This document shows, in pieces, positions 1,451 to 52,642 of a DNA stretch of 52,936 bases. Location: the sequence record MT764207.1. One strand, given 5' to 3'. The notes below the pieces were generated by a model, which did not search any database, was not told the origin of the DNA, and saw only the letters and a program-made list of their open reading frames with translations. The position numbers were made by a program, and so were the translations under genes. Each line of letters opens with the position of its first letter. Within the stretch, counting starts at the first letter, position 1. The DNA comes from Escherichia phage JEP7.

Positions 1451-3013
1451 ATGTCGATAACCCCAAGCAGCACGCCTAACGTCGGATACCAGCGTCCTGA
1501 GCTGACTAAGAACGCTGGTAAGTACCGAATGATTAAGGACTGCATCGAGGGTCAGGAAGCTGTTAAAGCACGCGGTGATTTTTATCTGCCTCGTCCTGAC
1601 CCTACGAACTGCACAGAAGAAAACCTGATGCGGTACAATTCGTACCTGCGTCGCGCTGTGTTCTATAACGTACTACAGCGAACTCTTTCGGGTATGACTG
1701 GCCTGGTATTCCAGCAGCAACCTGAGATGCTGATGCCTGATGATATGGAAGTGCTGAAAGTAAATATCGACGGTGCAGGTATCGGTGCTATTCAGCAAAT
1801 GCGTAAGTGCTTTAAATCAGTGCTTGCGTTTGGACGGGCAGGATTGCTGACTGACTTTCCAAAAGCACGTATCGGTGAGTTTGGTGAATCCATTGGTTTT
1901 ACACGTAAAGAACTAATGGACGGAGAAGTGCAGCCGACAGTAACGCTGTACATGCCATGGCAGATTATAAACTGGCGAGAAGAGTATCGCAACGGCAAAG
2001 TGATGCTCACTCAAGTTGTCATTTGCGAGCAAATACCGGGGGTTACTGATGGCTTTCAGCAAGACTACACACCCGTGTGGCGTCACCTTTACCTGGATGA
2101 AGAAGGCAATTGCAACCAGTCTTTGTGGGTCAATAAGGGCGACAAGAATGCGCAGAACGTCTCCGGTGGTGCGTTGTATGTCACGCAGGAAAATGTTGTC
2201 TTACGCGACTCCAATGGCTTACCGTTGAAGTTTATTCCGTTCCAGTTTATTGGTTCTGAAACAAACAGCGCTGAGATTGACCCTCCGCCGATGTACGACT
2301 TAGCTGTGCTTAATATTGCACACTACCGTAACTCTGCTGACTACGAAGAGTCATGCTTCGTAACAGGTCAACCCACAGTATGGGCGTCTGGGCTTACTGA
2401 GGCATGGGTTGAAGATGTTCTGAAGGGTGAACTGCGACTTGGTTCGTTTGGTGGTATTCCGCTGCCGGCTAACGCCGCTGTAGGTATTATCCAGACCAAC
2501 CCTAACACCCAGCCGTTTGAAGCGATGAAGCAAAAAGAAGCGCAGATGATTGCAATCGGTGCTCGACTGATTCGCGAGAACGGTAAGGTAGAACGACGCG
2601 AAGTTGAGATTAAGAACGAAGCTGCATCTGAGGCATCGCTTATCGTAACTGTTGCGCAGAACGTTGAAGCTGCTTACCGTAAGGCAATCGAATGGTGTGG
2701 TCTGTTCTACGGACACCCTAAAGAAGAGATTACGATTAACCTGAGCTACAACTTCATCTATAGCCAGTTGACGTATCAAGAACGCCAACAGCTGGTTAAC
2801 GAATGGATTGCTGGTGCTATCACGTTCAGTGAGATGCGTAGTAATCTCAAACAGGCTGGCATTGCTAAACTCACTGACGAAGAAGCCAAGAAGCTCATTG
2901 ACGAAGAGCTGGCTGAACGTGATGCACGTGAGGTAGCAAAAGAAGCAGAAAAGAACGCTCAAGCAGCTAAGAACAGCGATGGGCAGGAAAATAATCCAGA
3001 AAAAACTGAATAA
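1451..3013 (+). CDS. portal protein (putative)
   Basis: 520 aa ORF directly after terL (stop/start 1 nt apart) and before scaffold/capsid genes; acidic C-terminal tail; assignment by synteny and size. Confidence 0.55.
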   Translation: MSITPSSTPNVGYQRPELTKNAGKYRMIKDCIEGQEAVKARGDFYLPRPDPTNCTEENLMRYNSYLRRAVFYNVLQRTLSGMTGLVFQQQPEMLMPDDMEVLKVNIDGAGIGAIQQMRKCFKSVLAFGRAGLLTDFPKARIGEFGESIGFTRKELMDGEVQPTVTLYMPWQIINWREEYRNGKVMLTQVVICEQIPGVTDGFQQDYTPVWRHLYLDEEGNCNQSLWVNKGDKNAQNVSGGALYVTQENVVLRDSNGLPLKFIPFQFIGSETNSAEIDPPPMYDLAVLNIAHYRNSADYEESCFVTGQPTVWASGLTEAWVEDVLKGELRLGSFGGIPLPANAAVGIIQTNPNTQPFEAMKQKEAQMIAIGARLIRENGKVERREVEIKNEAASEASLIVTVAQNVEAAYRKAIEWCGLFYGHPKEEITINLSYNFIYSQLTYQERQQLVNEWIAGAITFSEMRSNLKQAGIAKLTDEEAKKLIDEELAERDAREVAKEAEKNAQAAKNSDGQENNPEKTE

Positions 3014-3018
3014 AGCTA

Positions 3019-3047
3019 TTTACTTTCGGTTTACCTGGCTATATAAT
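3019..3047 (+). promoter_or_regulatory. sigma70-like promoter (TTTACT-N17-TATAAT)
   Basis: -35 TTTACT at 3019-3024, 17-nt spacer, -10 TATAAT at 3042-3047, in the gap between portal and scaffold genes. Confidence 0.45.
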
Positions 3048-3190
3048 CCTTCATGTCAACCGCGCAACAGCCGGCCACGAGAGTCTGCAGGGCTCAGTGG
3101 ATTTCGGATGGCTGGCTGCGCGGTTTGACCCAAACCTGTTCAGAGCCCACTTGAGTGGATTGAGCCCCTCTCATATAGGATTGTAAAATT

Positions 3191-3904
3191 ATGGCACTTA
3201 AAACAGTTGTAACTGACCTTACCGAAGTTGATGAAGGCTTCCGTGGCCTGTATATCAAAGACGAAGCATCTGGCGCATTCCGTTTGGACGTTGAACCAGA
3301 CGAAAAAACGCTGAAAGAATTAGAAGACCTGCGCAAAGAAAAACAGCGTATGGAACAGCACACCAAAAAGCTTCTCGAAGAAAAGAAAAAAGAAGCTGAA
3401 CGTGCTCGCCTGGCTGAAGAAGAACGCGCACGTCGTGAGCGTGATGTTGAATCTCTTGAGCGCTCTATCAAAGAGAAACATCAGGCTGAACTGGAACAGT
3501 ATACTAATCGTCAGGCACAGCTGCAAGCTCAGCTGGAAGCGCAAATGGTTGATAACCTGGCGCTGAACCTGGCTAACCAACTCTCTGACACCCCGGCACT
3601 TATTATGCCACACATCAAGGCCCGACTGCGCGCTCAGGAAATTGATGGTAAGTGGCGTACTACTGTCGTGGATGTTATGGGTAACCCGACTGCTACAACG
3701 CCAGATGAACTAGTGGAACATATGCGCGCTGATAAGCAGTTTGCACCTCTTGTGCGTGGAACCAAGGCTGGCGGTGGCGGTGCCAACGGCGGCGGAGCTA
3801 ATCCTGGTGGGAACGGCGGTGGCGAACAGCACACTTTCGGAGGCGGGGACGACCGCATAGCACGTGCTCGTGCTAAAATCCAAAACACACAATGGGGCAA
3901 ATAA
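3191..3904 (+). CDS. scaffolding protein (putative)
   Basis: 237 aa, highly charged coiled-coil-like (EEKKKEAERARLAEEERARRERD), Gly-rich C-terminus, located between portal and major capsid genes. Confidence 0.5.
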   Translation: MALKTVVTDLTEVDEGFRGLYIKDEASGAFRLDVEPDEKTLKELEDLRKEKQRMEQHTKKLLEEKKKEAERARLAEEERARRERDVESLERSIKEKHQAELEQYTNRQAQLQAQLEAQMVDNLALNLANQLSDTPALIMPHIKARLRAQEIDGKWRTTVVDVMGNPTATTPDELVEHMRADKQFAPLVRGTKAGGGGANGGGANPGGNGGGEQHTFGGGDDRIARARAKIQNTQWGK

Positions 3905-3907
3905 GTT

Positions 3908-4885
3908 ATGTCACTGTATATTTTTAACGAACAAGTACGTTCTACCGCCACCGAACTGGTCGACCAGGACGTACAGAAGTTTAACGAAGCTTCTGCTGGT
4001 ACCCTTATCCTGGGTAACCAGTACGTAATCGGTGATTACGTTGAGCAGGCAATGTGGCAGCTGGTTGACGGTATCGCTACTCGTCGTAACGCTTACGCAG
4101 GCACCAACAAAGTTGATGCGCAGACTCTGGGCCAGATTCTGGACCGCTCTGTTAAGATCGACGGCCGTGTTGGTCCTCTGAACATTACCGGTACTATGAT
4201 GCGTCGCATCGGTGCAGGTGATACTGAACCAGCAGCTGTTGTTGCTGCACAGGCTTCTGCTGCGATGTTCCAGGATTACCTGAACACCACTGCTGCATGT
4301 CTGGTAGCTGCTATCGGTGCAAACGCTGATGTTGTTCTGGACGTAACTGCAGGCTCTGGTGCTGCTGCAAACATCACCATGCAGAACCTGAACAAAGTCA
4401 ACGCGAAGATGGGTGACCGTTCTCAGCAGATTCGTGCGTACATCATGCACTCTACTGCGTTCCACTCCCTCATCGACCAGGCTATCAACAACACAGAACA
4501 CCTGTTCCAGATTGGTGACCTGAACGTGTACAAAGACTTCCTGGGTCGTCGTTATGTCGTTTCCGACATCCCGGCTCTGGTTGATGGCGCCGGTGCTTCC
4601 GCTAAGTACCGCACTCTGGGTCTGACCCCGTCTGCTGCAATCGTTCAGGTCGGCGGCCTGTACGACATGGTTACCTCCGAGCAAACCGGTGGTGAAAACA
4701 TCCTGCGTCAGATGCAGGGTGAATACGACTTCAACGTGTCGCTGAAAGGCTACAGCTGGGTCGGTCACAAAGCTGGTCAGTCTCCGACTGATGAAGACCT
4801 GGCTGCTCAGGCTTCCTGGTCTAAAGTTGCAACTTCCAACAAAGACACCGCTGGTGTTATGTTGCTGGCTAAGTCTGCAATCTAA
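3908..4885 (+). CDS. major capsid protein (putative)
   Basis: 325 aa, follows scaffold gene by 3 nt; strong intrinsic terminator immediately downstream; assignment by synteny. Confidence 0.6.
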   Translation: MSLYIFNEQVRSTATELVDQDVQKFNEASAGTLILGNQYVIGDYVEQAMWQLVDGIATRRNAYAGTNKVDAQTLGQILDRSVKIDGRVGPLNITGTMMRRIGAGDTEPAAVVAAQASAAMFQDYLNTTAACLVAAIGANADVVLDVTAGSGAAANITMQNLNKVNAKMGDRSQQIRAYIMHSTAFHSLIDQAINNTEHLFQIGDLNVYKDFLGRRYVVSDIPALVDGAGASAKYRTLGLTPSAAIVQVGGLYDMVTSEQTGGENILRQMQGEYDFNVSLKGYSWVGHKAGQSPTDEDLAAQASWSKVATSNKDTAGVMLLAKSAI

Positions 4886-4907
4886 CCCACAAACGGGACT
4901 AACAAAA

Positions 4908-4937
4908 GGCGAGCTGACGAGCTCGCCTTTTTTATTT
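4908..4937 (+). terminator. rho-independent terminator
   Basis: GGCGAGC-TGACGA-GCTCGCC hairpin (4908-4927) followed by TTTTTTATTT. Confidence 0.75.
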
Positions 4938-4963
4938 ACACGTATAAAGTTCTGGTATATAAT
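4935..4963 (+). promoter_or_regulatory. sigma70-like promoter (TTTACA-N17-TATAAT)
   Basis: -35 TTTACA 4935-4940, -10 TATAAT 4958-4963; 27 nt upstream of ATG at 4990. Confidence 0.5.
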
Positions 4964-4989
4964 CGGACTAAACTTGCTGGAGGCTTTCT

Positions 4990-5490
4990 ATGGCATACAC
5001 ACTTGTTGTGGAAGACGGTTCAATTGTTCCGGGTGCTAACTCGTATGTTAGCGCTGCAGAAGTAGACGAGTTTATCACTAACGAAGGTATTCTCATTCAG
5101 CCAGGAACTGACCCGTATTACCAGGCTGCCAAAGCAGCTATTCGACTTGATAACCAGTTTAACTGGCTAGGTCGTAAGGTCAGCAAAACACAGAGCATGG
5201 CTTGGCCCCGTACAGGTCTCGGTGCGTGCAATGTTGATATAGCGGAATCTGTAATTCCGCGAGAAGTTAAGCTGGCACAGCTTTATATGCTGGCTAGCGT
5301 ATTGAGCTACGACGGCGAGGAAGGTGTACGCGGTGACCAGGCTTTGCGCCGTAAGAAAGTTGGTAACCTGGAGATTGAATACTTCGACTCCAAGTCAGGT
5401 GTTACCGGTGCAACTGACCTTTGGACTTCAGACGTCAAGGTCATGCTCAAGCACCTTGTGGGTGCATCACTGAGAACGCGGAGAGTATAA
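4990..5490 (+). CDS. head-tail connector / head completion protein (putative)
   Basis: 166 aa ORF with GGAGG RBS, first gene after capsid terminator; function by position only. Confidence 0.35.
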   Translation: MAYTLVVEDGSIVPGANSYVSAAEVDEFITNEGILIQPGTDPYYQAAKAAIRLDNQFNWLGRKVSKTQSMAWPRTGLGACNVDIAESVIPREVKLAQLYMLASVLSYDGEEGVRGDQALRRKKVGNLEIEYFDSKSGVTGATDLWTSDVKVMLKHLVGASLRTRRV

Positions 5491-5978
5491 TGATTCGCAT
5501 ACGCCTTTACCGTCGTGACAAACAAAAGTTCGAGTTCACCTACCGTGCCTTTAAGTCATTCGAAGGTCAAGGCGTATCAGTAGGTGTTCACCCAGAACAT
5601 AACAGACGCGTAAACCCTAGAGATCGTATAACAAACGCTGAGCTTGCAATGGTGCATGAATACGGTCTTAACGGTCTACCAGAACGAAGCTTTCTTCGTA
5701 GCGCTGTTGGCGGTAGGGGTAAAGGTCGACAGGCGATAAACAAAGCTTTCCGTGATAACGTGCCTGCCGTTCTTAGAGGAAGTATGACTGCCCATGAACT
5801 TAACGACAGAATAGGCCGTATGCTTGTCGATGCTGTTCACGACAGAATGGACAGTGACGTGCCACCTCCTAACACCGAGCTGACAGAAGAACGCAAGCGC
5901 GGACCTGGTACACTTAGAGAATCTATGCAATTGTATGATTCGATAGGTTACAAGGTTGGCAGAAACTGGAGGCTATAA
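5490..5978 (+). CDS. neck / head-tail joining protein (putative)
   Basis: ATG at 5490 overlaps upstream stop (TAATG), RBS GAGAG; track ORF 5421-5978 trimmed to this start. Confidence 0.3.
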   Translation: MIRIRLYRRDKQKFEFTYRAFKSFEGQGVSVGVHPEHNRRVNPRDRITNAELAMVHEYGLNGLPERSFLRSAVGGRGKGRQAINKAFRDNVPAVLRGSMTAHELNDRIGRMLVDAVHDRMDSDVPPPNTELTEERKRGPGTLRESMQLYDSIGYKVGRNWRL

Positions 5979-6355
5979 TGCTCAAGATAACTTCGCTAAT
6001 GAAGGATAAGTCCTTTGTGGCATTAACAGATGTTCTTCTCCGAAATGATTCGCGCTTACCAAACGGTGACTTCGAAGACGAATATACAGCTGCAAAGTAT
6101 CTGTGTAATATTCAACCTGGTGCAGCTACCAACCAGCCTAACCTGTTGACTAAAGACGATGGCGAGCATGAGTTCCCACGTATTGCGATATACTGTGGAC
6201 AAGAGCTGAAGCTCGGAGACTTCGTTATATACGAAGACCAGCCATACCGTGTATTCCGTATCGACCCATGGAGTCGTCATGGCCACTACTACGTTACAGC
6301 AATTCTACATAAAGGACCTCAGGGAGCTCGTTCAGAAGCTTTTACCATTACCTGA
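5978..6355 (+). CDS. hypothetical virion protein
   Basis: 125 aa; ATG overlaps upstream stop (TAATG), RBS GGAGG. Confidence 0.3.
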   Translation: MLKITSLMKDKSFVALTDVLLRNDSRLPNGDFEDEYTAAKYLCNIQPGAATNQPNLLTKDDGEHEFPRIAIYCGQELKLGDFVIYEDQPYRVFRIDPWSRHGHYYVTAILHKGPQGARSEAFTIT

Positions 6356-6806
6356 CGGGACATGTATTATTGGTGAAGAGTCTGGTACAGTTGACGGTAG
6401 TCCGTATGTTTACTTGCGCCCTGGCGACGCATATGACTTCGGACCTCCTCGAACCAGACAAGGCGCTGACGGCTTTGAGTACGTCAGTAAGCCTATGATG
6501 ACATCTGTACGTATTACAGCTGTCGGTAAGAATGCTGCTGAGCTAATGCGTAAGCTACACATAGCACTAGGTAGTTCACCAGCTAAGCAGTTTAACCGTT
6601 TACGACATTATGCAATAACCAAAATATCGAAGATTGATAATGTCGGTGGTGCTATCGGTGCAGGCTATGCCCAGAAGTCAATGATGACTGTTGACATTAG
6701 CTATGTGCATAAAGTTAAGATTGAGCAACCGTACATCTACAAGGTTGACATCACTTGTATGGATGATAACGGTAACAAAGCGACTGGTACAGTAGAGGAA
6801 CCGTAA
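6279..6806 (+). CDS. hypothetical virion protein
   Basis: ATG at 6279 preceded by GGAG; track ORF begins at a GTG at 6249; overlaps upstream gene. Confidence 0.3.
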   Translation: MATTTLQQFYIKDLRELVQKLLPLPDGTCIIGEESGTVDGSPYVYLRPGDAYDFGPPRTRQGADGFEYVSKPMMTSVRITAVGKNAAELMRKLHIALGSSPAKQFNRLRHYAITKISKIDNVGGAIGAGYAQKSMMTVDISYVHKVKIEQPYIYKVDITCMDDNGNKATGTVEEP

Positions 6807-7429
6807 TGGCAACTGGAGTAGACCCGGAACTGCAAGCGCAGCTGGATAAGCTAACAACTGCTGTCCAGCTCATTCATGACTTCGGTATGTCAGACGACCC
6901 AAACATCCCTAACCCGGAAGGTGGTGTCATACGCACACTCGAAGGCATTAACGCTGCAATTAACGAAGCTATACCAAACTTTGAAAATGCTAACGAAGCT
7001 GCTATCCAGGCGCGCGCTGCTCGTGATGTAGCTATTGCAGCCAAAGAAGCTGCAGAAACCGCAGCTGAACAGGCTACAGTATCTTCGACGTCAGCAATCT
7101 ATGAGTATGGCAATGTTGCAAGTGCAGCTACCGTAACTATACCTGCTGCATCTAAAACAATTGTTAGCATTACCCTTAATCAGCCAAACACCGTAATTAA
7201 TATCGGTAATGTATCTGACCCGTCTACTGTTGCGCGTCAGATTACTATTGCTATTAAGCAAGGTACTGGTTCTAACAAGGTGACCGCTTGGGATCCCAGA
7301 ATAAAATGGGCCAACAACAGGAAGCCCGTTCTGTCATTCCTTGTGGGTTACACAGATGTTGTTACGTTGCTGACCTTTGACTCAGGCGCAACTTGGATGG
7401 GTTTCTTTAACGGTGGATGGATTAAATAA
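6806..7429 (+). CDS. hypothetical virion protein
   Basis: 207 aa, Ala-rich helical N-terminal half; start overlaps upstream stop. Confidence 0.3.
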   Translation: MATGVDPELQAQLDKLTTAVQLIHDFGMSDDPNIPNPEGGVIRTLEGINAAINEAIPNFENANEAAIQARAARDVAIAAKEAAETAAEQATVSSTSAIYEYGNVASAATVTIPAASKTIVSITLNQPNTVINIGNVSDPSTVARQITIAIKQGTGSNKVTAWDPRIKWANNRKPVLSFLVGYTDVVTLLTFDSGATWMGFFNGGWIK

Positions 7430-10386
7430 TGCACACGATGTTGCTTAAAGACGGATCAGACCATCGAGCTAATGTCGAAAGCCTTATCGAAGGTCACCAC
7501 CATTTTCTTGAGCGCAATACTGGTAGAACTGACGACGCTACGCGTCAGCACTATATCTTCAACCCAGAAGGAGTAGTGTCGAACAACCGCCATTTTATTG
7601 CGCACACTATGATGGAGTACCAGCCTAACGGTGATGCTCCGTCTGAAAGTCAGTCGCTGCTGATACTCGGCGAAATTCACGCGTACCTTGCTACTAAGGA
7701 ACAGCGGTATCTGGACAAAGCAATTGAGTACTTCAATGCTTACGTCAAGTACTATTACGAGGGGGACCCAATCCCTGATACTCCTCGACGCTGGATCGCT
7801 AACTGGCTTTGTAATGGCAAAGAGCCTGTGCTAGCCAGCTTCCCGATCAACCCTGATTCACCAACACAGGGCGGCTATAAAAATGTGCCTGTTAAATTTG
7901 TTAACGGCAAAGCACAAATCCCTCATGGTTCTCCTTTCTGGGGCGAGTACCTGGATGTTGCTACTTGGGCCCACAGGGGGCACATGGCTTGGCCTGCTAT
8001 TAATGGTGGTGTCCGTGTTATTAAAAATAAAGTTGACTGGGACGATATTTACAACAATTATCGCATCACTACCATGCCAGCTGACCCGTGGAATCAGTTA
8101 GCCTGGATTGACTGGCCGAGGTATCTGGGTGAACCAAGCTACACTGTGGACTGGTCAGCTGCTGAACCTCCTGTACATCTCATCGAGTATATTGTTGCAT
8201 GGACCAATAACAAGATTGGTGTTCTGCCTGGCAAAAACGATGAGCTATGGGGAGGCGAGATTCTTGAGACTGGACTGCCTGACTCTCGTAGAGGTGAGAT
8301 TCAACTCCGTGACCACACTGTTAACGGTGTGTATCTGCTTAACTATGCCGTTAAGCTTCCTGTTGAACACGGTGGTTATTTGCTTAAGCGAAATGAAGTA
8401 TGGCACAACAGACCGGTAAACGTTCCATTGTACGGTGAGCTTCAACGCGGTAATGCTGCTGATGCTGAGTTGTGGTTCTGTGACTGCTGCTATATGCTGT
8501 GGCGAATTACTAACGAGCAAAAGTATTACAACGCTTGGCGAGCTGTCCTGTTTACACTGGAGGAGTATATTGATATTGATAAACAAGACCAGTTCTTCAG
8601 ACAAGACCCTCACGCGTCGTCTCCGTTTACTGATGGTATCTCTTATGATTGGACTTATCCTGAACTGGCACAAGCTATATATTCACGTGATGAAAATGGT
8701 TATATAGTTCTACGTCAGAACCAAAAAGCTCAATCATCTCTGGAGCAACAGGCTGTATGGTTTAAGTGTAAGCCAACAGCTAAGATACGTACCGAGGTTG
8801 GTGGTAAAGATGACGCTGGTCAGAATATCAGTGTCAAGGTGGAAATGTACATGAACCGTGAAAAGGTTGACGTCGAGCAAAACGTCTATCGTTTTGTCAC
8901 ACAGCTACCTGCTCTTGGTGCTTCTCCTGCTAACTACGACATTCCGTTAAGCGATTTTGTCGCAGGTACTAAGCCAGACGGTTCTGAGTATATCTTAGCT
9001 GATATTCGTTCATCCACTGATTATGGTAATGCCACTATTGCAGTGTCTTATCGTACTGACATACTCGACAACAGACGTGGCAACACTGTTCGTATGACTA
9101 TACCTGATAGTTCGTCAGGTGCCATTATAGGCTTTTGGTTACTGGAATCTTCCCAGGCACCTTTAAACTCGCTGACGTATACTTCTACAGGTCCGTTGTA
9201 CATCAAAGTAACTGACGCGCAAGGCTGGAGCTGGGTACGTGATTTACCTGCCGCATCAGGCTGGGTAACTCAGCAGATTCGTACATGGGAGTTCAGGCTG
9301 GCGTCATACCAGGAAAACCCAGGTACACCACCTACCAGCCCACAATTCGGCGAGATTAAGCAGTTCTCGTTTGTACTGCCTGACGGCGTTAATACGTCGA
9401 CAAGTATTAGCTGGTACTGTGTGAATGATGTTCCGCCTCGCTATAACTGGCCAATTGGTTACACGATTAAGTATCGTCTTACTTTCTCGGCTGATAACCC
9501 GTACACAGCTAAGCTAGGTGACTGTACTGTGCTGGACTATGAGAACGATAACCTTGCATATACGCCTGGTGTTATTCCGTTCTCCAACATTTATAACCCT
9601 GATTCTCAGCAGTTTGACGGCTGGCATGGTCTACCTTACCCTGGTTATCAGTATCCGTTTGTCTTTACGCATGATGATACTGCGGCTGGTACGACCAGAC
9701 TTAACAACATGGTTAACTTCTTATACGATTCTCAGCAATGGTACTTTAAGAAGTTTGGCCAGCTAGGTCCTGGCGCATCTGCTTTTATCTGGAACCGTTG
9801 GGATAACTTTAAATACGGTGTACCTGATACATTTACCATGTATCACTGGGGCAACGGTAGTGCATGGTCAGGTTACCAGCCTCGTGCTTACTTCTCCGCA
9901 GCACGTGGATGGTATGAGCTAGTAAACCGTGGTAAGCCGGTTCCGAGTAAGCTTATTGCTTACGTGGATAACTGGTCAAAATGGTTGCTTGACTTCATGG
10001 AAAGGTCAGGAGGTGTGTCACCTTCTAACTTCCCGCAAGAAGGTGTTGCTCTGCCAGTCCCTTCAGACTTCACAGGTCACATGTGTGGACTATGGCTTGC
10101 TGGAGCAGCTATGTCAGCCCTTTGTGGGTCAACAGTATCAGGACTTGATAAGCTGATGGATATGCTTGTCAATGAGCTAGAAGACCACTATGACCTAACT
10201 GGTATTCCGGGGCATGTAATGGATGGTGGTTGGTCGCCAGCGTTACGCCTTGAAACTGGTACAGGACCTGAAAGCAACGCCATGTACTATGGTTTTTACT
10301 CTGGCGAAATATTACGAGGGTTGGGCTTATACCTGCTATACAAAAACAAAGGGGCTAAAGCAGATATTTATGATTTAGGCCCGTAA
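7429..10386 (+). CDS. large Trp/Tyr-rich virion-associated protein, possibly carbohydrate-active
   Basis: 985 aa single ORF, very rich in W/Y/N/D/G; lies between neck genes and Ig-like proteins; no P-loop or other motif recognised. Confidence 0.3.
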   Translation: MHTMLLKDGSDHRANVESLIEGHHHFLERNTGRTDDATRQHYIFNPEGVVSNNRHFIAHTMMEYQPNGDAPSESQSLLILGEIHAYLATKEQRYLDKAIEYFNAYVKYYYEGDPIPDTPRRWIANWLCNGKEPVLASFPINPDSPTQGGYKNVPVKFVNGKAQIPHGSPFWGEYLDVATWAHRGHMAWPAINGGVRVIKNKVDWDDIYNNYRITTMPADPWNQLAWIDWPRYLGEPSYTVDWSAAEPPVHLIEYIVAWTNNKIGVLPGKNDELWGGEILETGLPDSRRGEIQLRDHTVNGVYLLNYAVKLPVEHGGYLLKRNEVWHNRPVNVPLYGELQRGNAADAELWFCDCCYMLWRITNEQKYYNAWRAVLFTLEEYIDIDKQDQFFRQDPHASSPFTDGISYDWTYPELAQAIYSRDENGYIVLRQNQKAQSSLEQQAVWFKCKPTAKIRTEVGGKDDAGQNISVKVEMYMNREKVDVEQNVYRFVTQLPALGASPANYDIPLSDFVAGTKPDGSEYILADIRSSTDYGNATIAVSYRTDILDNRRGNTVRMTIPDSSSGAIIGFWLLESSQAPLNSLTYTSTGPLYIKVTDAQGWSWVRDLPAASGWVTQQIRTWEFRLASYQENPGTPPTSPQFGEIKQFSFVLPDGVNTSTSISWYCVNDVPPRYNWPIGYTIKYRLTFSADNPYTAKLGDCTVLDYENDNLAYTPGVIPFSNIYNPDSQQFDGWHGLPYPGYQYPFVFTHDDTAAGTTRLNNMVNFLYDSQQWYFKKFGQLGPGASAFIWNRWDNFKYGVPDTFTMYHWGNGSAWSGYQPRAYFSAARGWYELVNRGKPVPSKLIAYVDNWSKWLLDFMERSGGVSPSNFPQEGVALPVPSDFTGHMCGLWLAGAAMSALCGSTVSGLDKLMDMLVNELEDHYDLTGIPGHVMDGGWSPALRLETGTGPESNAMYYGFYSGEILRGLGLYLLYKNKGAKADIYDLGP

Positions 10387-10392
10387 CCACTA

Positions 10393-10421
10393 TTTACTTA
10401 ACCGAGGCGCCAGCCTATAAT
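10393..10421 (+). promoter_or_regulatory. sigma70-like promoter embedded in an inverted repeat
   Basis: TTTACT 10393-10398, N17, TATAAT 10416-10421; GCGCCAGC...GCTGGCGC dyad straddles the -10. Confidence 0.45.
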
Positions 10422-10453
10422 AAGCTGGCGCACCCAATAAGAGGATTCTCCAG

Positions 10454-11092
10454 ATGGCAAATCGTACTACAGCCAACCGTCCTGTTAAAGACGCAGACCT
10501 GCGTCAAGAGTCGGTTACTCAGTTCCCGTTAGCAAAGCCGACCAAGCTTGATGAGAACGGAAAATTCATTCCAACCCCAGTTACCGGTGTAACTGTTACC
10601 CCTAAAGCTAAGTCAATTGCTGTTGGTGAGTTTACTACTCTGACAGCAGCAGTAGCCCCGGCAGACGCAGATGACGTCACCGTATTGTGGGAAAGCGATA
10701 CACCTGCTAATGCAACTGTTGATGGTTCAGGTCGTGTTCAGGGTATCAAAGTAGGTTCAGCAACTATTACTGCTAAATCCAAGCTTGACCCTGCCAAAAC
10801 CGATACCGTAGCAATTACGGTAACTGCTCCGCCTGTAGCCGTCACTGGTGTTACGTTAGCGCCTAAGTCGCCCAGCGTTGTAGTAGGCTCTACTGTACAG
10901 CTGACTGCAACTGTGCTGCCTGCTGGCGCTACTAACAAAGCTGTTACCTACGAGTCCAATGACACGGCTAAAGCTACTGTTAGCGCTACCGGTCTGGTGA
11001 CTGGTAAAGCAGCTGGCGTCGTCACCATCACTGTCAAAACAGCTGATGGCAGCTTCACTGACACCGCGTCAGTAACTGTTACTGCTGAGTAA
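10454..11092 (+). CDS. Ig-like (BIG2) domain protein
   Basis: 212 aa with two repeats of the pattern VTGVT..PK...VGxT.QLTATV.P..AT...V.W.S....ATV...G.V.........TIT typical of bacterial Ig-like group 2 domains. Confidence 0.6.
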   Translation: MANRTTANRPVKDADLRQESVTQFPLAKPTKLDENGKFIPTPVTGVTVTPKAKSIAVGEFTTLTAAVAPADADDVTVLWESDTPANATVDGSGRVQGIKVGSATITAKSKLDPAKTDTVAITVTAPPVAVTGVTLAPKSPSVVVGSTVQLTATVLPAGATNKAVTYESNDTAKATVSATGLVTGKAAGVVTITVKTADGSFTDTASVTVTAE

Positions 11093-11103
11093 GGAGCTGA
11101 TTG

Positions 11104-13233
11104 ATGTCGCTTCCACTTAATGAGGTTGTCGACGTCCAGTTCAGTAAGAGCAACGGGGGTAAAGGTTTTACCCCCAATGTTCCGCTGGAAGGTATAATGC
11201 TTTCTAACTACGAGTACTCAATCGTCGCGGGTGATGACCCTGTTCAGCTAGTTGTGCGTTACATTCCAACCAACGCTACTGAGCGTGGTATGGCATGGAA
11301 ATCTAGCGACCCGGACGTTATCACTGTTGATGAGCTCGGATTTGTGAAGCCACTGGCGGAAGGTGTTGCATACGTGACTGGTACGTCTGTTGACGGCGGT
11401 TATACAGTACGGGCAAAGTTTAACATTGCTCGGGCACCTATCCTTGTTGAATCTGTTACAGTGTCTCCCACAAGTGTGACGCTTGAAGAGGGCAAGACTC
11501 AACGCCTGACATACACCTATTTACCTGCTAATGCAGACAAACCTGATTTCTACTGGATTTCAGACGATGAGTCTGTTGCTATAGTTAACGACAGCGGGCT
11601 TGTCACTGCCATTGGAGATGGCGAAACAACTGTAAACGTGCAGTACGGTGTTGACAGCTCTATATTCGATAGCTGTACTGTAACTGTTATTCCGCCTGTT
11701 GTACACGTTACAGGAGTTGAGTTTCTTACTCAGTCGCCTATTAACGTTAATATCGGAAGCACAGCTGGTACTAGTATTCGTATATCGCCAGAAGATGCCA
11801 CTGACAAAACAGTGACATACGAAAGCAGTGCGCCTGATGTAGCAACTGTGGATACTGACGGAAATGTTACTGGTATTATAGCTGGTAATGCCACTGTTAC
11901 TGTTAAGACGAATGACGGTGATAAGACTGACACTCTTGACATTATAGTCAGGGTACCTGCTGTAAATGTTACAGGTGTAAGTATTGATGAAGGCGATACA
12001 GCTTCTATGGAGGTTGGTGACACGCTTCAGCTACATGCCACTGTGACTCCTGAAAATGCTACTGACCCGTCTGTTGTATGGAGTGCTCCTGTATCAGAAG
12101 TTGCGTCTGTGACTGAAGCTGGTTTGGTAACCGCTAACGCTGCAGGTTTAATTGATGTTACTGTTATCACTAATGATGGGAACTTTACTGATAGAATCGA
12201 GGTTAAAGTTACAGACCCCAGAATCGCAGTTACGGATGTTGCATGGGCTCCTGACTCTCCGACTAAAGTAAGTGCCGGCCATCAGGTGCAAACTAAAATT
12301 GTTATAACACCTGACAACGCAACTAACAAAAAAGTTAGCTACAATAGTTCAAACCCAGACGCTGTTACTGTTGACACTAACGGAGTTATATACGGCCAAT
12401 CTCCTGGAACTTCGACTATTACAGTTACAACAGACGACGGTGGACTTGTTGCTTCGTTTGTAGCGACTTGCACAGAGGTGGCTGTTATTACACCAGATGG
12501 TCTTGGTGGTATTCCAGTAGGTGGTACTCAGCAGTTCACTTACACTGTTAACCAGTCTGACGCTGAGCTGACTAATATTCGTTATGAGTCTGCTGACCCA
12601 GCTATTGCAACTGTTGATTCATCAGGCGTTGTAACTGGTGTTGCTAGCGGCGGATGTAACATCTGGATTTACGCAACTAGTAATGGTGCTGACATTAGCG
12701 CAGCTACTTGGGCACAAATTTCTGAGAGGGTACAGGTCTATCCGCAGTATGCTGAATGGCTTGTGGGTAACACCAAACAACTTGATGTTGAGATCTATCC
12801 GTCGGACTCTAAGAGCGTTACTGTTACTTATAGCTCGTCAGATGACTCTATAATTAGTGTAGATGCAAATGGCTTGATGACTGCTAAGTCTGAAGGTTCA
12901 GCAACTATTACTGCTAACGTTGTAATGAACGGTGTTGCTGCTTCTGGTACAACATCTCCTTACGTGTCTGAGCTTTCTGTTACTACGGATTCGCTGCCTG
13001 CACTTACTGTTGGTAACACGCAGCAGCTCGTTGTAACTGTTAGACCTGAATACGCTAAGACAGACGCAGGCTATAGCATTCAGTATACAACTACAGACGA
13101 TACTGTCGCTACTGTAAGTAATGCTGGTGTTATTACTGGTGTTGGTAGTGGTGGATGTCGTATTGGTGCCACAGTAACTGTGAGAAACGCTACAGCGTCG
13201 GACAGCTCTTATCAGTCCGTCGATGCAGCATAA
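11104..13233 (+). CDS. multi-domain Ig-like (BIG2) repeat protein
   Basis: about 709 aa with at least six tandem Ig-like repeats of the same pattern; ATG at 11104 with AGGAG RBS (track starts at a TTG at 11101). Confidence 0.6.
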   Translation: MSLPLNEVVDVQFSKSNGGKGFTPNVPLEGIMLSNYEYSIVAGDDPVQLVVRYIPTNATERGMAWKSSDPDVITVDELGFVKPLAEGVAYVTGTSVDGGYTVRAKFNIARAPILVESVTVSPTSVTLEEGKTQRLTYTYLPANADKPDFYWISDDESVAIVNDSGLVTAIGDGETTVNVQYGVDSSIFDSCTVTVIPPVVHVTGVEFLTQSPINVNIGSTAGTSIRISPEDATDKTVTYESSAPDVATVDTDGNVTGIIAGNATVTVKTNDGDKTDTLDIIVRVPAVNVTGVSIDEGDTASMEVGDTLQLHATVTPENATDPSVVWSAPVSEVASVTEAGLVTANAAGLIDVTVITNDGNFTDRIEVKVTDPRIAVTDVAWAPDSPTKVSAGHQVQTKIVITPDNATNKKVSYNSSNPDAVTVDTNGVIYGQSPGTSTITVTTDDGGLVASFVATCTEVAVITPDGLGGIPVGGTQQFTYTVNQSDAELTNIRYESADPAIATVDSSGVVTGVASGGCNIWIYATSNGADISAATWAQISERVQVYPQYAEWLVGNTKQLDVEIYPSDSKSVTVTYSSSDDSIISVDANGLMTAKSEGSATITANVVMNGVAASGTTSPYVSELSVTTDSLPALTVGNTQQLVVTVRPEYAKTDAGYSIQYTTTDDTVATVSNAGVITGVGSGGCRIGATVTVRNATASDSSYQSVDAA

Positions 13234-13258
13234 AAATTAATTAACTTTGCCTCGGCCA

Positions 13259-13287
13259 TTTACTTGGGTAAACTTACTGAGTATAAT
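13259..13287 (+). promoter_or_regulatory. sigma70-like promoter flanked by an inverted repeat
   Basis: TTTACT 13259-13264, N17, TATAAT 13282-13287; CGGCCAT...ATGGCCG dyad flanks it. Confidence 0.45.
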
Positions 13288-13319
13288 GGCCGGAAAGTCC
13301 ACCCAAGAGGTAATCAAAA

Positions 13320-14459
13320 ATGCCGTTGAATGTAAACCAGATTGTAAACGTTCAACTGAACAACACTCCAACTGGTATCAGCAAAGGTGACTTCGGTAAG
13401 CTGGCTCTTTTAACTCAGGACCCTGGCACTGCTTTTCCTGACAGCGAAAACGGACACTATGTTGAAATCGGCAGCTACTCTGAAGCCGAGTCTTATTGGG
13501 GTACTGGTTCAGTTGTGCTTGGCGCGTTGAAGATTTTCTTTGCACAATCTCCGCGTCCTCGTTCAGTAGTTATCGCCTCATGGAACAACACCTCTACTCT
13601 GGATGCGGCTATTAAAGCATTCAACGATGTGTACCCTGACTGGTATGTTCTGCGTCCGCTCCCACCTACTGGTGAGCTGTCTGACGATGACATCGATTTG
13701 CTGGCGTCAACTGTTGCTGCTTACGACAAAAAGCGTTGCAGCTATACTACCACTAAAGCAACTCATATTGAAAACAGCGACTCCAACCCGATTAAAGTTC
13801 TGGCTGGTAAAGGCTACAACAATATGTGGCTTCAGTACGATAAGAACAACCAGCACTACGCAGACATCTCTGCTATGGCGCGTGCTCTGTCTGTTAACTT
13901 CTCTGGTAACCGCACCACTATTACCATGAAGTTCAAACAAGAGCCTGGTATTACACCGAACAACACTTTAACGCTTACTGAAGCTAACAAGTGTAAAGCG
14001 CTGGGTATTAACTGGTACACCTACTACAGCACCTTTGCTATGCTTGCAGAAGGTACTGTCCTTGGTACGTCCAAGCCGCCGCGCTTCTGGGATGAAGTAC
14101 ACGGTCTAGACTGGTTCTGTAATGCAGTTCAGACTTACGTCTTCAACTCAATCGCTACGTCACCCACGAAGGTGCCGCAGACGAACAAAGGTCACGAGCG
14201 CCTTACCGGTGCTGCAGCTGTTGCTTGTCAGCAGGCTGTCGACAACGGCTTGGTTGCGCCTGGTATCTGGTACGGTGATGAGTTTGGTACACTGTCTTAT
14301 GGTGACCGACTCGAAACAGGTTTCTACATCTACATCCCTGACGTAGATGACCAGCCTCTGGATGAGCGTGAAGCTCGTCAGGCCGTTGTAATGCAAATCG
14401 CGATTAAGCTGGCTGGTGCAATCCACTCCAGCGACATCCTGATTAACTTCACTCGCTAA
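13320..14459 (+). CDS. tail sheath protein (putative)
   Basis: 379 aa, first gene of tail block, followed by a tube-sized gene, a frameshifted chaperone and the tape measure gene; assignment by gene order. Confidence 0.4.
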   Translation: MPLNVNQIVNVQLNNTPTGISKGDFGKLALLTQDPGTAFPDSENGHYVEIGSYSEAESYWGTGSVVLGALKIFFAQSPRPRSVVIASWNNTSTLDAAIKAFNDVYPDWYVLRPLPPTGELSDDDIDLLASTVAAYDKKRCSYTTTKATHIENSDSNPIKVLAGKGYNNMWLQYDKNNQHYADISAMARALSVNFSGNRTTITMKFKQEPGITPNNTLTLTEANKCKALGINWYTYYSTFAMLAEGTVLGTSKPPRFWDEVHGLDWFCNAVQTYVFNSIATSPTKVPQTNKGHERLTGAAAVACQQAVDNGLVAPGIWYGDEFGTLSYGDRLETGFYIYIPDVDDQPLDEREARQAVVMQIAIKLAGAIHSSDILINFTR

Positions 14460-25985: not shown

Positions 25986-26002
25986 AGGCCCCTTCATTTA
26001 TT
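25974..26002. terminator. bidirectional terminator hairpin between convergent gene blocks
   Basis: GGGGCC-GAGTGAA-GGCCCC hairpin flanked by A-run upstream and TTCATTTATT downstream, at the junction of + strand lysis genes and - strand genes. Confidence 0.55.
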
Positions 26003-26225
26003 AGCGTTTACCTTTTAGTTCGTTATACTGCGCACACGCTGCACACAGCACTGTACCGGGTAAAAGCTGACGTCGTTTTTCTTCAATGTCTTCCCCACAC
26101 TGGTAGCACGTCAGCGGGCTTACTCCGGTGTATCTTACTCGGTTCGATAGTGCTGCGTCCCGGGCAACTTGTTCAGCTTCAGAAGCCATATCAGTAATGT
26201 CCGATGTGCGCATAGACTCAATCAT
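26001..26225 (-). CDS. DksA/TraR-family C4 zinc-finger protein
   Basis: 74 aa with CxxC-N17-CxxC (CYQCGEDIEEKRRQLLPGTVLCAACA) characteristic of the TraR/DksA zinc finger. Confidence 0.6.
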   Translation of the reverse strand: MIESMRTSDITDMASEAEQVARDAALSNRVRYTGVSPLTCYQCGEDIEEKRRQLLPGTVLCAACAQYNELKGKR

Positions 26226-32515: not shown

Positions 32516-32621
32516 AATTTTTTCCTCGTCTACAGGGCTTAATGTTTGTTCGTTACGTGAGTTAATATACGTCATTTAAAAGAGTGTGTAAACACCTTTT
32601 TTAAACTTTTTTCATTAGTGT

Positions 32622-41457: not shown

Positions 41458-41550
41458 TGGTTGTATCTCCTTAGCAGAATGTACGTCTATTATGTATATA
41501 AAGGAGGGGAAAGTAAATAGATATAAATGTATAAAATACATAAAAGTCTA

Positions 41551-41580
41551 TTTACTCTGGTTTAATAACGTGTATATAAT
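41551..41580 (+). promoter_or_regulatory. sigma70-like promoter (TTTACT ... TATAAT)
   Basis: in AT-rich divergent intergenic region 41458-41610. Confidence 0.4.
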
Positions 41581-44599: not shown

Positions 44600-44860
44600 A
44601 TGAGCTCCTTATAAAAGATTAAGGGGGTAAAAAAGGGGGATACAAGTACCGGATAAAGGGGGTATATATTTATTTATTATTATTATTATTATTATATATT
44701 ATTAATTATATTAGAAGTAATAAAAACAGCTACTTAGAGGCGTCTATATGTATGATCCGGTTTATCTCTTTATTAATATCAGAACCGGATGAAAAAAATT
44801 TACGCCGGCGAAAAAAATAAAAAAGCCGGATTGATAAATAAATCTGTAGACGTTTACACT
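44600..44860. repeat. AT-rich iteron/microsatellite region (candidate replication origin or regulatory hub)
   Basis: three AAGGGGG(T/A)A copies (44622, 44634, 44656); (TTA)7 microsatellite about 44676-44697; repeated CCGGAT/ATCCGG/GCCGGC motifs each followed by A-runs. Confidence 0.4.
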
Positions 44861-44882
44861 GTAAAAAAGATGTGCTACAATA
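44854..44882 (+). promoter_or_regulatory. sigma70-like promoter (TTTACA-N17-TACAAT)
   Basis: upstream of gene starting 44936. Confidence 0.45.
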
Positions 44883-44935
44883 TTTATCAATGTTGCTGAT
44901 TACCAAAACTTTGAATTGTATACGAGGCTGAATAA

Positions 44936-52465: not shown

Positions 52466-52581
52466 AAACCGGATAAATATAAAGGCGTCTAAGCTAGTTC
52501 TTCATCTATATAAGCTACTTATTCGCCTTTCTACTGTAGACTTTCTCATCATCTCTCTAGACACTTCATTTTTATATTCTG

Positions 52582-52610
52582 TTTACTTACTTCGCGTAAC
52601 TCGTTATAAT
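52582..52610 (+). promoter_or_regulatory. sigma70-like promoter (TTTACT-N17-TATAAT)
   Basis: -35 52582-52587, -10 52605-52610, upstream of 52643 gene. Confidence 0.5.
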
Positions 52611-52642
52611 CCCGACTATCCGGATTAACGAGGACGACACCC

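What the first reader, a model, noticed from the sequence alone, without database searches (positions are those of the whole stretch)
10393..13292. Late promoters embedded in perfect inverted repeats
The promoter before the first Ig-like gene sits inside GCGCCAGC-CTATAATAA-GCTGGCGC (10408-10430), and the promoter before the sheath-like gene is bracketed by CGGCCAT ... ATGGCCG (13253-13292). A dyad spanning the -10 suggests repressor or activator binding, or a hairpin forming in the nascent leader.
Basis: seen in the sequence. Interest (0 to 1): 0.3.

Follow-up and report, generated by a model that had tools for sequence, protein, structure and literature searches.

The report
Phage promoters folded inside RNA stem-loops
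Two host-type promoters inside the tail-gene operon of a Salmonella/E. coli phage lie within conserved stem-loops that can form only in RNA read through from the upstream gene; this resembles the promoter/stem-loop cassettes already described in T4-like phages, so it is real but only modestly new.

Summary
Both inverted repeats exist. The first is at 10407-10431, one base wider at each end than reported. The second is exactly as reported, and it is the outer part of a 16-pair helix.

The window is a complete Rosemountvirus-type myophage genome. Each dyad overlies a TTTACT-N17-TATAAT promoter. That type occurs at 10 intergenic sites on both strands, so it is the phage's general sigma-70-type promoter, not a late-specific one.

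Across 7-8 diverged lineages the arms keep pairing through compensatory changes:
- **IG1:** GCGCCAGC/GCTGGCGC becomes TGCCAGC/GCTGGCA, GTGCCTGC/GCAGGCAC or AGCCAGT/GCTGGCT.
- **IG2:** there are 19 G·U cells on the + strand and none on the - strand.

This points to sense-strand base pairing rather than a protein operator. The predicted start sites lie at the 3' foot of each stem, so the hairpins exist only in transcripts reading through from the upstream gene, not in the promoter's own leader. They lack U-tracts and do not mask the ribosome-binding site.

Best reading: a composite promoter/stem-loop acting on upstream-derived RNA (end protection or processing, perhaps attenuation). The closest known thing is the PeSL cassette of T4-like phages. 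Interest is modest.

The parts
10393..10398 (+). -35 hexamer TTTACT of the promoter before the Ig-like gene (P10393)
   Evidence: annotated as a promoter in BP63 and S144
10407..10414 (+). IG1 stem, 5' arm GCGCCAGC. It lies in the promoter spacer.
10415..10423 (+). IG1 9-nt loop CTATAATAA holding the -10 hexamer TATAAT (10416-10421)
   Evidence: The loop is 9 nt and contains TATAAT in all 7 lineages.
10424..10431 (+). IG1 stem, 3' arm GCTGGCGC. It covers the discriminator and start-site region; the predicted start is about G10428.
   Evidence: The start site is inferred from sigma-70 geometry, not measured.
10439..10456 (+). Shine-Dalgarno AAGAGGA and the ATG (10454) of the Big_2 Ig-like gene. 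The about 26-nt leader lies outside the stem.
13234..13251 (+). AT-rich tract after the stop codon of the upstream gene, in the UP-element position of P13259
   Evidence: reading of the sequence; inference
13252..13267 (+). IG2 helix, 5' strand TCGGCCATTTACTTGG.
13268..13276 (+). IG2 9-nt loop (middle of the promoter spacer)
13277..13293 (+). IG2 helix, 3' strand CTGAGTATAATGGCCGG. The predicted start is about A13294.
13307..13322 (+). Shine-Dalgarno GAGG and the ATG (13320) of the DUF3383 sheath-like gene
52600..52632 (+). Related case at the terS promoter P52582. CTCGTTA (52600-52606, overlapping the -10) pairs with TAACGAG (52626-52632, the Shine-Dalgarno region).
44830..44891 (+). Related case: an 11-bp perfect repeat, ATTGATAAATA ... 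TATTTATCAAT, brackets the whole P44853 promoter before the RusA-like gene.
4904..4931 (+). For contrast: a canonical terminator (12-bp stem plus T-run) directly abutting promoter P4935

Best explanation
Each dyad is the DNA footprint of an RNA stem-loop laid over an internal sigma-70-type promoter (TTTACT-N17-TATAAT) in the phage's long + strand structural operon.

The arms use the positions a sigma-70 promoter leaves free: the spacer, the discriminator and the bases just upstream of the -35. One 67- or 86-nt intergenic region therefore carries two overlapping signals.

The promoter's own transcript starts at the 3' foot of the stem, so it has an unstructured leader of about 26 nt. RNA arriving from the upstream tail gene contains both arms and folds. 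In IG1 this gives 8-11 bp with the -10 in the loop. In IG2 it gives about 16-18 bp in which the -35 pairs with the -10.

I infer that the stem-loop acts on that upstream-derived RNA and punctuates the polycistronic late message. It would protect the 3' end of the upstream segment from exonucleases and, at the long IG2 helix, possibly offer an RNase III site. At most it would give weak attenuation. Meanwhile the promoter adds transcripts for the Ig-like and sheath-like proteins.

**Shown:** the repeats, their overlap with the promoters, conservation of pairing, and the strand bias of G·U pairs.

**Inferred:** the start sites, the existence of read-through, and the function.
For: - **Conserved pairing in IG1.** Seven distinct lineages were compared (window/BP63, SE13, S144, SE4, KM/KE25, fHy-Eco03/IMG-VR contig, SOI901). 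In IG1, 94.6% of cells are paired. Two pairs changed on both sides (CG/UA/AU and AU/UA). The covariation score was reached by 1 of 500 shuffles. Sliding the 3' partner by 1-3 columns gave at most 45% paired.
- **Conserved pairing in IG2.** The 16-pair helix is 97.3% paired, against at most 46% when slid. The outer pairs run C-G / U·G / U-A.
- **Strand bias in IG2.** With an eighth lineage added, the + strand has 105 Watson-Crick, 19 G·U and 4 unpaired cells. The - strand has 105, 0 and 23. The + strand MFE is lower in all 8 lineages.
- **Selective conservation.** The arms are kept while the neighbouring spacer bases diverge freely.
- **Fold stability.** z ranges from -2.4 to -5.6 in all lineages.
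- **Start-site geometry.** The start site predicted 7 nt after the -10 gives a 24-28 nt leader in every lineage and falls at the 3' edge of the stem.
- **Read-through is plausible.** No terminator-like site lies between P4935 and these regions.
- **Host polymerase.** A relative's paper reports no phage RNA polymerase and use of the host enzyme (PMC7432712).
- **A described precedent.** In T4-type PeSL cassettes the stem-loop overlaps the -10 box, G-T pairs are shown in the stems, and the PST/T4 pair has a TTTACW-N17 promoter consensus. One PeSL stem-loop reduced reporter expression as strongly as rrnB T1 (PMC2839356, PMC4122927).
Against: - No transcript data exist for this phage group, so the start sites, read-through and RNA ends are all inferred.
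- The sample is 7-8 related lineages, so the covariation statistics are weak. For the 16-pair IG2 helix the covariation score was reached by 40 of 500 shuffles, because most of its changes are one-sided G·U steps.
- IG1 shows no strand bias (3 G·U-compatible cells on either strand), so DNA-level pairing is not excluded there.
- Neither stem has a U-tract, so termination is not expected.
- IG1 (8-11 bp) is too short for a classical RNase III site.
- Only 3-4 of the 10 promoters are enclosed, and the internal promoter P3019 has no such helix. The arrangement is therefore not a general requirement.
- The specific benefit (end protection versus attenuation versus processing) cannot be told apart from sequence.
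Confidence: 0.55

Rival explanations
1. The dyads are operators. A dimeric phage or host regulator binds the two half-sites across the -10 and times expression of the tail genes.
For: - The dyad symmetry is centred on core promoter elements.
- The six inner IG2 arm bases GGCCAT/ATGGCC are invariant in all lineages.
- Near-consensus sigma-70 promoters in front of late genes need some timing device.
Against: - The arms at IG1, IG2 and P44853 share no half-site.
- The IG1 arms differ between lineages by paired changes on both sides. A protein would need to change specificity repeatedly to follow them.
- IG2 tolerates 19 T/G cells, which are mismatches in a DNA palindrome, and these occur only in the orientation that gives G·U in sense RNA.
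- The IG1 stem shifts by 1 nt relative to the hexamers between lineages.
- No helix-turn-helix or other DNA-binding domain was found in 20 small early proteins. The one transcription factor seen is a DksA/TraR zinc-finger protein. From my knowledge of that family (not tested here), such proteins bind RNA polymerase rather than DNA.
Confidence: 0.12
2. The structure forms in DNA. Supercoiling-driven hairpin or cruciform extrusion at the promoter exposes or hides the -10 and so couples promoter strength to template topology or replication, in the manner of N4 early promoters.
For: - The IG1 arms are GC-rich around an AT-rich 9-nt centre.
- Both DNA strands fold at about -11 kcal/mol, z about -4.
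- IG1 shows no strand bias in wobble pairs.
- In S144, KM and SOI901 the stem extends to 10-11 bp with a 3-nt loop.
Against: - Stems of 8 bp with 9-nt loops are poor cruciforms (my estimate, not computed with a tool).
- Only 82% of IG2 helix cells pair on the - strand, and G·T pairs are frequent.
- The promoters carry full sigma-70 hexamers at 17-nt spacing, and no phage RNA polymerase is present (PMC7432712).
- A cruciform would destroy the duplex -35 and -10 that sigma-70 first binds.
Confidence: 0.08
3. The stem-loops are true attenuators or terminators of upstream transcription, as proposed for PeSLs. They cut read-through so that downstream genes depend on the internal promoter.
For: - The position and architecture are as in PeSLs, where one stem-loop reduced lacZ expression as strongly as rrnB T1 (PMC2839356).
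- The stable GC-rich stems lie just after stop codons.
Against: - No U-tract follows either stem in any lineage (ACCCAAUAAG; AAAGUCCACC).
- The terminator scan does not call them.
- This phage's clear terminators do carry U-tracts, for example 4904-4931.
Confidence: 0.2
4. There is no function. The complementarity is a by-product of promoter composition (TTTAC versus GTAAA-like -10) or of neutral drift.
For: - Part of the IG2 inner helix (UUUAC with GUA-AA) follows from the two hexamers themselves.
- Six of the ten promoters show only chance-level enclosing helices.
- The P44853 dyad is not kept in KE26 or SOI901.
Against: - Compensatory changes occur in IG1.
- The G before TATAAT and the GGCC flanks are invariant in IG2 only, not at other promoters.
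- Shuffle tests give p about 0.01 for each site.
- The arms are conserved next to freely diverging spacer bases.
Confidence: 0.05

Closest known systems
PeSL (promoter-early stem-loop) composite promoter/terminator cassettes of T4-like phages (Arbiol et al. 2010, PMC2839356; Comeau et al. 2014, PMC4122927)
   Same: - A strong sigma-70-type promoter sits in a short intergenic region between same-strand genes, running from stop codon to Shine-Dalgarno.
- The PST/T4 PeSL promoter consensus is TTTACW-N17-TAYWAT, the same type as here.
- A stem-loop overlaps the promoter; 'overlapping the -10 box' is one of the commonest PeSL subclasses.
- G-T pairs are drawn in the stems.
- The stem is proposed to act on transcription coming from upstream.
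   Different: - The phage here is a 53-kb Rosemountvirus, not a T4-like phage.
- The sites are in the conserved structural module, not in hyperplastic ORFan regions.
- There are two to four sites with unrelated stem sequences, not a dispersed repeat family with G-tract/C-tract stems.
- They are orthologously conserved with compensatory changes.
- In IG2 the stem encloses both hexamers, which is not one of the five described subclasses.
- No U-tract is present, and no evidence of cassette-mediated shuffling was obtained. IG1 does, however, sit between a 78%-identical tail gene and a 40%-identical Ig-like gene.
Promoter/RNase III-site pairs of phage T7 (phi3.8/R3.8, phi6.5/R6.5; Dunn and Studier 1983, as cited in PMC6938266)
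   Same: An internal promoter and an RNA-processing hairpin share one short intergenic region of a polycistronic phage operon. The IG2 helix length (about 16-18 bp plus a bulge) is in the range of RNase III substrates.
   Different: [quoted passage not shown]
- T7 uses its own RNA polymerase.
- Cleavage is not shown here, and IG1 is too short.
Fold-back inhibition of IS10 transposase mRNA (Davis, Simons and Kleckner 1985; recalled from memory, not retrieved)
   Same: One arm of an inverted repeat lies upstream of the element's own start site. Only transcripts entering from outside can fold, so read-through RNA and promoter-initiated RNA differ in structure.
   Different: - In IS10 the 3' arm covers the ribosome-binding site and blocks translation.
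- For IG1 and IG2 the computed Shine-Dalgarno accessibility is essentially the same in both RNAs in most lineages.
- Fold-back inhibition does fit the terS promoter at 52582.
Hairpin promoters of phage N4 virion RNA polymerase (from my own knowledge)
   Same: A small hairpin is centred about 10-12 nt upstream of the start site.
   Different: - The N4 hairpin is a DNA structure read by a phage-encoded polymerase and has no sigma-70 hexamers.
- Here full -35 and -10 hexamers are present and no phage RNA polymerase is encoded.

Membership tests
PeSL composite promoter/stem-loop | Strong sigma-70-like promoter in a short intergenic region between same-strand genes | tested here: met
   TTTACT-N17-TATAAT at 10393 and 13259, in intergenic regions of 67 and 86 nt. 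Promoter activity itself was not measured.
PeSL composite promoter/stem-loop | Stable stem-loop overlapping or abutting the promoter boxes | tested here: met
   IG1 encloses the -10 and IG2 encloses both boxes. Fold z is about -4 and pairing is conserved.
PeSL composite promoter/stem-loop | Dispersed repeated motif family concentrated in hyperplastic regions, flanking ORFans and mediating modular shuffling | tested here: not met
   The stems are unrelated in sequence and the sites lie in the conserved tail module. The only hint is that DNA homology to KM, KE25 and fHy-Eco03 stops at about 10429 and the downstream Ig-like gene is only 40% identical, against 78% upstream.
PeSL composite promoter/stem-loop | Stem-loop terminates or attenuates upstream transcription | not testable with these tools
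   Needs reporter assays or in vitro transcription. The absence of a U-tract argues against strong termination.
PeSL composite promoter/stem-loop | Host genome is a T4-like phage | tested here: not met
   The genome is a Rosemountvirus type of about 53 kb.
Intrinsic (Rho-independent) terminator | GC-rich hairpin immediately followed by a U-tract | tested here: not met
   The hairpin is present but is followed by ACCCAAUAAG (IG1) and AAAGUCCACC (IG2). The terminator scan does not list either site.
Dyad-symmetric operator | Conserved half-site sequence shared by co-regulated promoters and read as sequence by a dimeric protein | tested here: not met
   The arms differ between sites. In relatives pairing, not sequence, is kept. 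T/G cells are tolerated on one strand only.
Dyad-symmetric operator | A cognate DNA-binding regulator is encoded | tested here: inconclusive
   No DNA-binding domain was found in 20 small early proteins. Only a DksA/TraR zinc-finger protein was seen. Many ORFs were not scanned or have no known family.
RNase III processing site (T7 R-site type) | About 20 bp of mostly continuous double-stranded RNA | tested here: inconclusive
   IG2 has 16-18 pairs with one bulge, which is borderline. IG1 has 8-11 pairs, which is too short. Cleavage cannot be tested here.
Fold-back inhibition (IS10 type) | The 3' arm sequesters the Shine-Dalgarno sequence or start codon only in read-through RNA | tested here: not met
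   The probability that the Shine-Dalgarno is unpaired is about equal in read-through and promoter-initiated RNA for IG1 and IG2 in most lineages. It is met at the terS promoter: 0.00-0.25 against 0.18-0.53.
N4-type hairpin promoter | Phage-encoded RNA polymerase that recognises an extruded DNA hairpin, with no sigma-70 hexamers | tested here: not met
   Consensus-like hexamers at 17-nt spacing are present. No RNA polymerase is annotated in the colinear PiR genome or reported for S144 (PMC7432712).
Invertible promoter (inverton) | Promoter segment flanked by inverted repeats, flipped by a recombinase, with both orientations observed | tested here: inconclusive
   The arms are only 7-8 bp around 26 nt and no recombinase gene is adjacent. 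One record (SPHG1) has the whole 86-nt intergenic region inverted, but its sheath gene is missing there, so this looks like an assembly rearrangement.

The most novel reading that the evidence does not exclude
The internal promoters may be 'self-complementary' by design. The RNA copy of the promoter (the -35 pairing with the -10) would mark read-through transcripts for cleavage or 3'-end formation exactly where promoter-initiated transcripts begin. Both routes would then deliver the same short unstructured leader, and the upstream message would gain a protective 3' hairpin. This would be a general way for host-polymerase phages to overlay an RNA punctuation code on the free positions of sigma-70 promoters. 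A DNA-level, topology-sensing version of the same idea is also not excluded for IG1.
Probability: 0.12. Interest if true: 0.6.

Novelty: new member of a known kind. Interest (0 to 1): 0.33.

Why it matters
- It shows that in a phage that appears to rely on host RNA polymerase (reported for a relative), short intergenic regions can carry two superimposed signals. One is a DNA promoter. The other is an RNA stem-loop built from the promoter's unconstrained positions, and comparative data show the second signal is under selection.
- It extends the T4-type PeSL idea to an unrelated group of phages, members of which have been isolated as antibacterial candidates, and to structural operons.
- It gives clean, testable mutants (one-arm versus compensatory) for asking what U-less intergenic hairpins do to phage polycistronic mRNAs.
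- It warns annotators not to read every dyad over a -10 as an operator.

Tried and rejected
- **Shine-Dalgarno masking at IG1 and IG2.** Partition-function accessibility of the Shine-Dalgarno sequence is essentially the same with and without the upstream arm in most lineages. Rejected for these sites. It holds only at the terS promoter.
- **More distant relatives for covariation.** Phages sharing the tail protein (Grimontviridae, a Pantoea phage, prophage-like IMG/VR contigs) and GC-rich sheath homologues have a different gene order and no orthologous intergenic region.
- **Rfam.** No family matched anywhere in the window, at gathering threshold or at E up to 1 over 2950-13450.
- **'All promoters are enclosed'.** Only 10393, 13259 and 44853 are significant (p about 0.01 each), with 52582 marginal. 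The other six are at chance.
- **Conservation of the P44853 dyad.** It is kept in yarpen, replaced by a different -10-enclosing 7-bp dyad in S144, and absent in KE26 and SOI901.
- **Sigma-54 or extended -10 readings of the arms.** Neither fits, from reading the sequence.
- **Literature on IS10 fold-back inhibition.** Searches did not retrieve it. It is cited from memory only.
- **Invertible-promoter reading.** It was prompted by the inverted cassette in SPHG1 and judged to be an assembly rearrangement.
Full report
**What the window is.** The 52,936-base window is a complete genome of a Rosemountvirus-type myophage of Salmonella and E. coli. It is 97-100% identical over the region to phages yarpen, emhyr, triss and BP63. 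It is colinear with Escherichia phage PiR, base for base, with no indels over the first 50 kb. Genes 1-25985 on the + strand are the packaging, head, tail and lysis module. The finding lies in two short intergenic regions of that module:
- **IG1**, 10387-10453 (67 nt), lies between a 985-aa tail protein and a Big_2 Ig-like protein.
- **IG2**, 13234-13319 (86 nt), lies between an eight-repeat Big_2 protein and a DUF3383 protein, annotated as tail sheath in RefSeq relatives.

**Observation.** Both repeats exist.
- IG2 has CGGCCAT at 13253-13259 and ATGGCCG at 13286-13292, exactly as stated.
- Each overlies a sigma-70-type promoter of identical geometry, TTTACT-N17-TATAAT. Both are annotated as predicted promoters in BP63 or S144.
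- Holding the hexamers fixed and shuffling the rest, a helix enclosing the -10 as strong as the observed one arises with p=0.008 (IG1) and p=0.015 (IG2).
- The intergenic RNAs fold far better than shuffles: z = -4.0 and -3.9, 0 of 200.
The helix runs 13252-13267 with 13277-13293, 16 pairs with T13284 bulged. In it the -35 TTTAC pairs with GTA(T)AA of the -10, and the two ends of the spacer pair with each other.

**The promoters are not late-specific.** TTTAC[AT]-N17/18-TATAAT-like sites occur at ten intergenic positions.
- On the + strand: 3019, 4935, 10393, 13259, 41551, 44853 and 52582.
- On the - strand: 46251, 41517 and 32592.
- They head early, replication and structural genes alike.
- The S144 paper found no phage RNA polymerase and proposes use of the host enzyme (PMC7432712).

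**Relatives.** I collected the orthologous regions from these sources:
- Rosemountvirus species BP63, SE13 and brorfarstad;
- Loughboroughvirus S144 and SE4;
- the KM/KE25 group;
- fHy-Eco03 and a matching IMG/VR contig;
- Erwinia phage SOI901;
- one metagenome contig (IG2 only).

Coding flanks are 70-77% identical at the DNA level to the more distant of these relatives.
- **IG1 stems.** Every lineage has a 7-8 bp stem around a 9-nt loop that holds TATAAT, but the stem sequence differs.

| Lineage | 5' arm | 3' arm |
|---|---|---|
| window | GCGCCAGC | GCTGGCGC |
| KM | TGCCAGC | GCTGGCA |
| fHy-Eco03 | GTGCCTGC | GCAGGCAC |
| SOI901 | AGCCAGT | GCTGGCT |

- **IG1 counts.** 94.6% of cells are paired. 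Two pairs changed on both sides. The covariation score was reached by 1 of 500 shuffles. Slid registers gave at most 45% paired. The spacer bases next to the arm diverge freely.
- **IG2 counts.** GGCCAT/ATGGCC is invariant. The next pair outward is C-G, U·G or U-A, and the one beyond is C-G or U·G. The inner spacer-spacer pairs change (UUGG/CUGA to ACAG/CUGU and others) while staying paired. Overall 97.3% of cells are paired, against at most 46% when slid.
- **Strand bias in IG2.** Of the non-Watson-Crick cells, 19 are G·U on the + strand and none would be G·U on the - strand. Pairing is 96.9% on the + strand and 82.0% on the - strand, and the + strand MFE is lower in all eight lineages.
- **Limits.** IG1 shows no such bias. 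The sample is small and related, so these numbers are supportive rather than formal proof.

**What this says about mechanism.**
- Selection acts on base pairing. For IG2 it acts on the sense strand, that is, in RNA.
- The arms use the positions that a sigma-70 promoter leaves free. IG1 uses the spacer plus the discriminator. IG2 uses -37 to -44, both ends of the spacer, and the discriminator.
- With the start site 7 nt after the -10 (about G10428 and A13294; inferred, not measured), the promoter's own RNA begins at the 3' foot of the stem. It has a 24-28 nt unstructured, CA-rich leader in every lineage. The stem-loop cannot be 'in the nascent leader'.
- It can form only in RNA that reads through from the upstream gene. 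That is expected, because no terminator-like site lies between P4935 and these regions.
- Neither stem is followed by a U-tract in any lineage, whereas the phage's evident terminators are, for example 4904-4931, which directly abuts promoter P4935. Strong intrinsic termination is therefore unlikely.
- The stems do not hide the ribosome-binding site. The probability that the Shine-Dalgarno sequence is unpaired is about the same in read-through and promoter-initiated RNA in most lineages.

I therefore favour a post-transcriptional role on the upstream-derived RNA. The stem would act as a 3'-exonuclease barrier or end-defining hairpin for the upstream segment. At the 16-18 bp IG2 helix it could also be an RNase III site. 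Weak attenuation is the next most likely role. Which of these holds cannot be settled from sequence.

**Rivals.**
- **Protein operator.** Disfavoured for four reasons. The three significant dyads share no half-site. Pairing rather than sequence is conserved. One-strand G·U is tolerated. No DNA-binding domain was seen in 20 small early proteins. The one transcription factor found is a 74-aa DksA/TraR zinc-finger protein at 26001-26225 on the - strand; from my knowledge of that family, such proteins act on RNA polymerase rather than on DNA.
- **DNA cruciform or hairpin.** Not excluded for IG1 (DNA folds of about -11 kcal/mol on both strands). It fits IG2 poorly, and it conflicts with the need for duplex hexamers.
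- **Pure chance or by-product.** Unlikely given the compensatory changes and the site-specific invariance of bases that other promoters do not need.

**Comparison with known systems.** The closest described thing is the PeSL cassette of T4-like phages.
- It is a strong sigma-70-type promoter plus a stem-loop in a short intergenic region.
- The stem-loop most often lies between the boxes or overlaps the -10 box.
- G-T pairs are drawn in the stems.
- For the PST/T4 pair the promoter consensus is TTTACW-N17-TAYWAT.
- One PeSL stem-loop reduced reporter expression as strongly as rrnB T1 (PMC2839356, PMC4122927).

The present sites share the architecture but not the family traits. They are not a dispersed repeat. 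They are not in hyperplastic regions. The phage is not T4-like. IG2 encloses both boxes, which is not one of the five described subclasses. IG1 does sit at a mosaic junction: 78% amino-acid identity upstream against 40% downstream, with DNA homology to three lineages stopping at about 10429.

[quoted passage not shown] IS10 fold-back inhibition (from memory) shares the logic that only incoming transcripts fold, but it works by masking the ribosome-binding site. That is not met at IG1 or IG2. It is met at the terS promoter.

**Verdict.** This is a new member, with a variant architecture at IG2, of the known class of composite promoter/stem-loop elements in phage intergenic regions. Interest is modest (0.33). 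The point of value is the comparative evidence that an RNA structure is superimposed on the free positions of a DNA promoter.

Noticed in passing
window 3048-3190: The about 140-nt leader between promoter P3019 and the scaffold-gene ATG (3191) appears more conserved than the surrounding region (about 89% DNA identity to Loughboroughvirus over 2800-3400, against about 75% at the tail-gene loci). It folds into a long stem, GTCAACCGCGCA...TGCGCGGTTTGAC, of about 23 pairs. It has no Rfam family and its function is unknown.
   Followed up: partly
window 52600-52632 (promoter P52582, terS start 52643): CTCGTTA, just upstream of and overlapping the -10, pairs with TAACGAG of the Shine-Dalgarno region. 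The pairing is kept with G·U pairs in KM, fHy-Eco03 and SOI901 (AGUCUUCGU/GCGAGGACU). The Shine-Dalgarno sequence is predicted to be masked in read-through RNA (unpaired probability 0.00-0.25) but not in promoter-initiated RNA (0.18-0.53). This resembles IS10-type fold-back inhibition.
   Followed up: partly
window 44830-44891: An 11-bp perfect inverted repeat, ATTGATAAATA...TATTTATCAAT, brackets the whole promoter before the RusA-like gene (p about 0.01). It is kept in yarpen, replaced in S144 by a different 7-bp dyad enclosing the -10, and absent in KE26 and SOI901.
   Followed up: partly
window 26001-26225 (- strand): A 74-aa protein with a DksA/TraR C4 zinc finger (Pfam E = 6e-10). It is a candidate modulator of host RNA polymerase. 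The promoters before structural genes tend to have GC-richer discriminators (GGCCGG, CCCGAC, CGGACT) than the early ones.
   Followed up: no
window 41512-41556: The divergent promoters P41551 (+) and P41517 (-) are arranged so that their two TATTTACT -35 boxes form a 21-nt imperfect inverted repeat.
   Followed up: no
window 52500-52570, 44846, 32530-32620: A short motif, (T)GTAGAC or CTAGAC, recurs upstream of several promoters. It could be a regulator site or chance; no statistics were done.
   Followed up: no
L003 (Salmonella phage SPHG1, MW413353) 2985-3070: The whole 86-nt IG2 cassette (SE13 type) lies inverted between the major-tail gene and the tube gene, and the sheath gene is missing at that place. 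The record is 47 kb with several split matches, so this is probably an assembly rearrangement. Its breakpoints lie at or within a few bases of the cassette ends.
   Followed up: partly
whole window versus OM313461 (PiR): The window has the same length as PiR and is colinear with it over the first 50 kb, with 1386 substitutions and no indel. Many of the first listed differences fall at third codon positions. Locally, other phages (yarpen, emhyr, triss) are 100% identical, which suggests mosaic ancestry.
   Followed up: no
window about 3015 and about 44732: Many related GenBank records start or end at these two positions (just before P3019, and inside the variable region before the RusA-like gene). 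This reflects either deposit conventions or physical ends.
   Followed up: no
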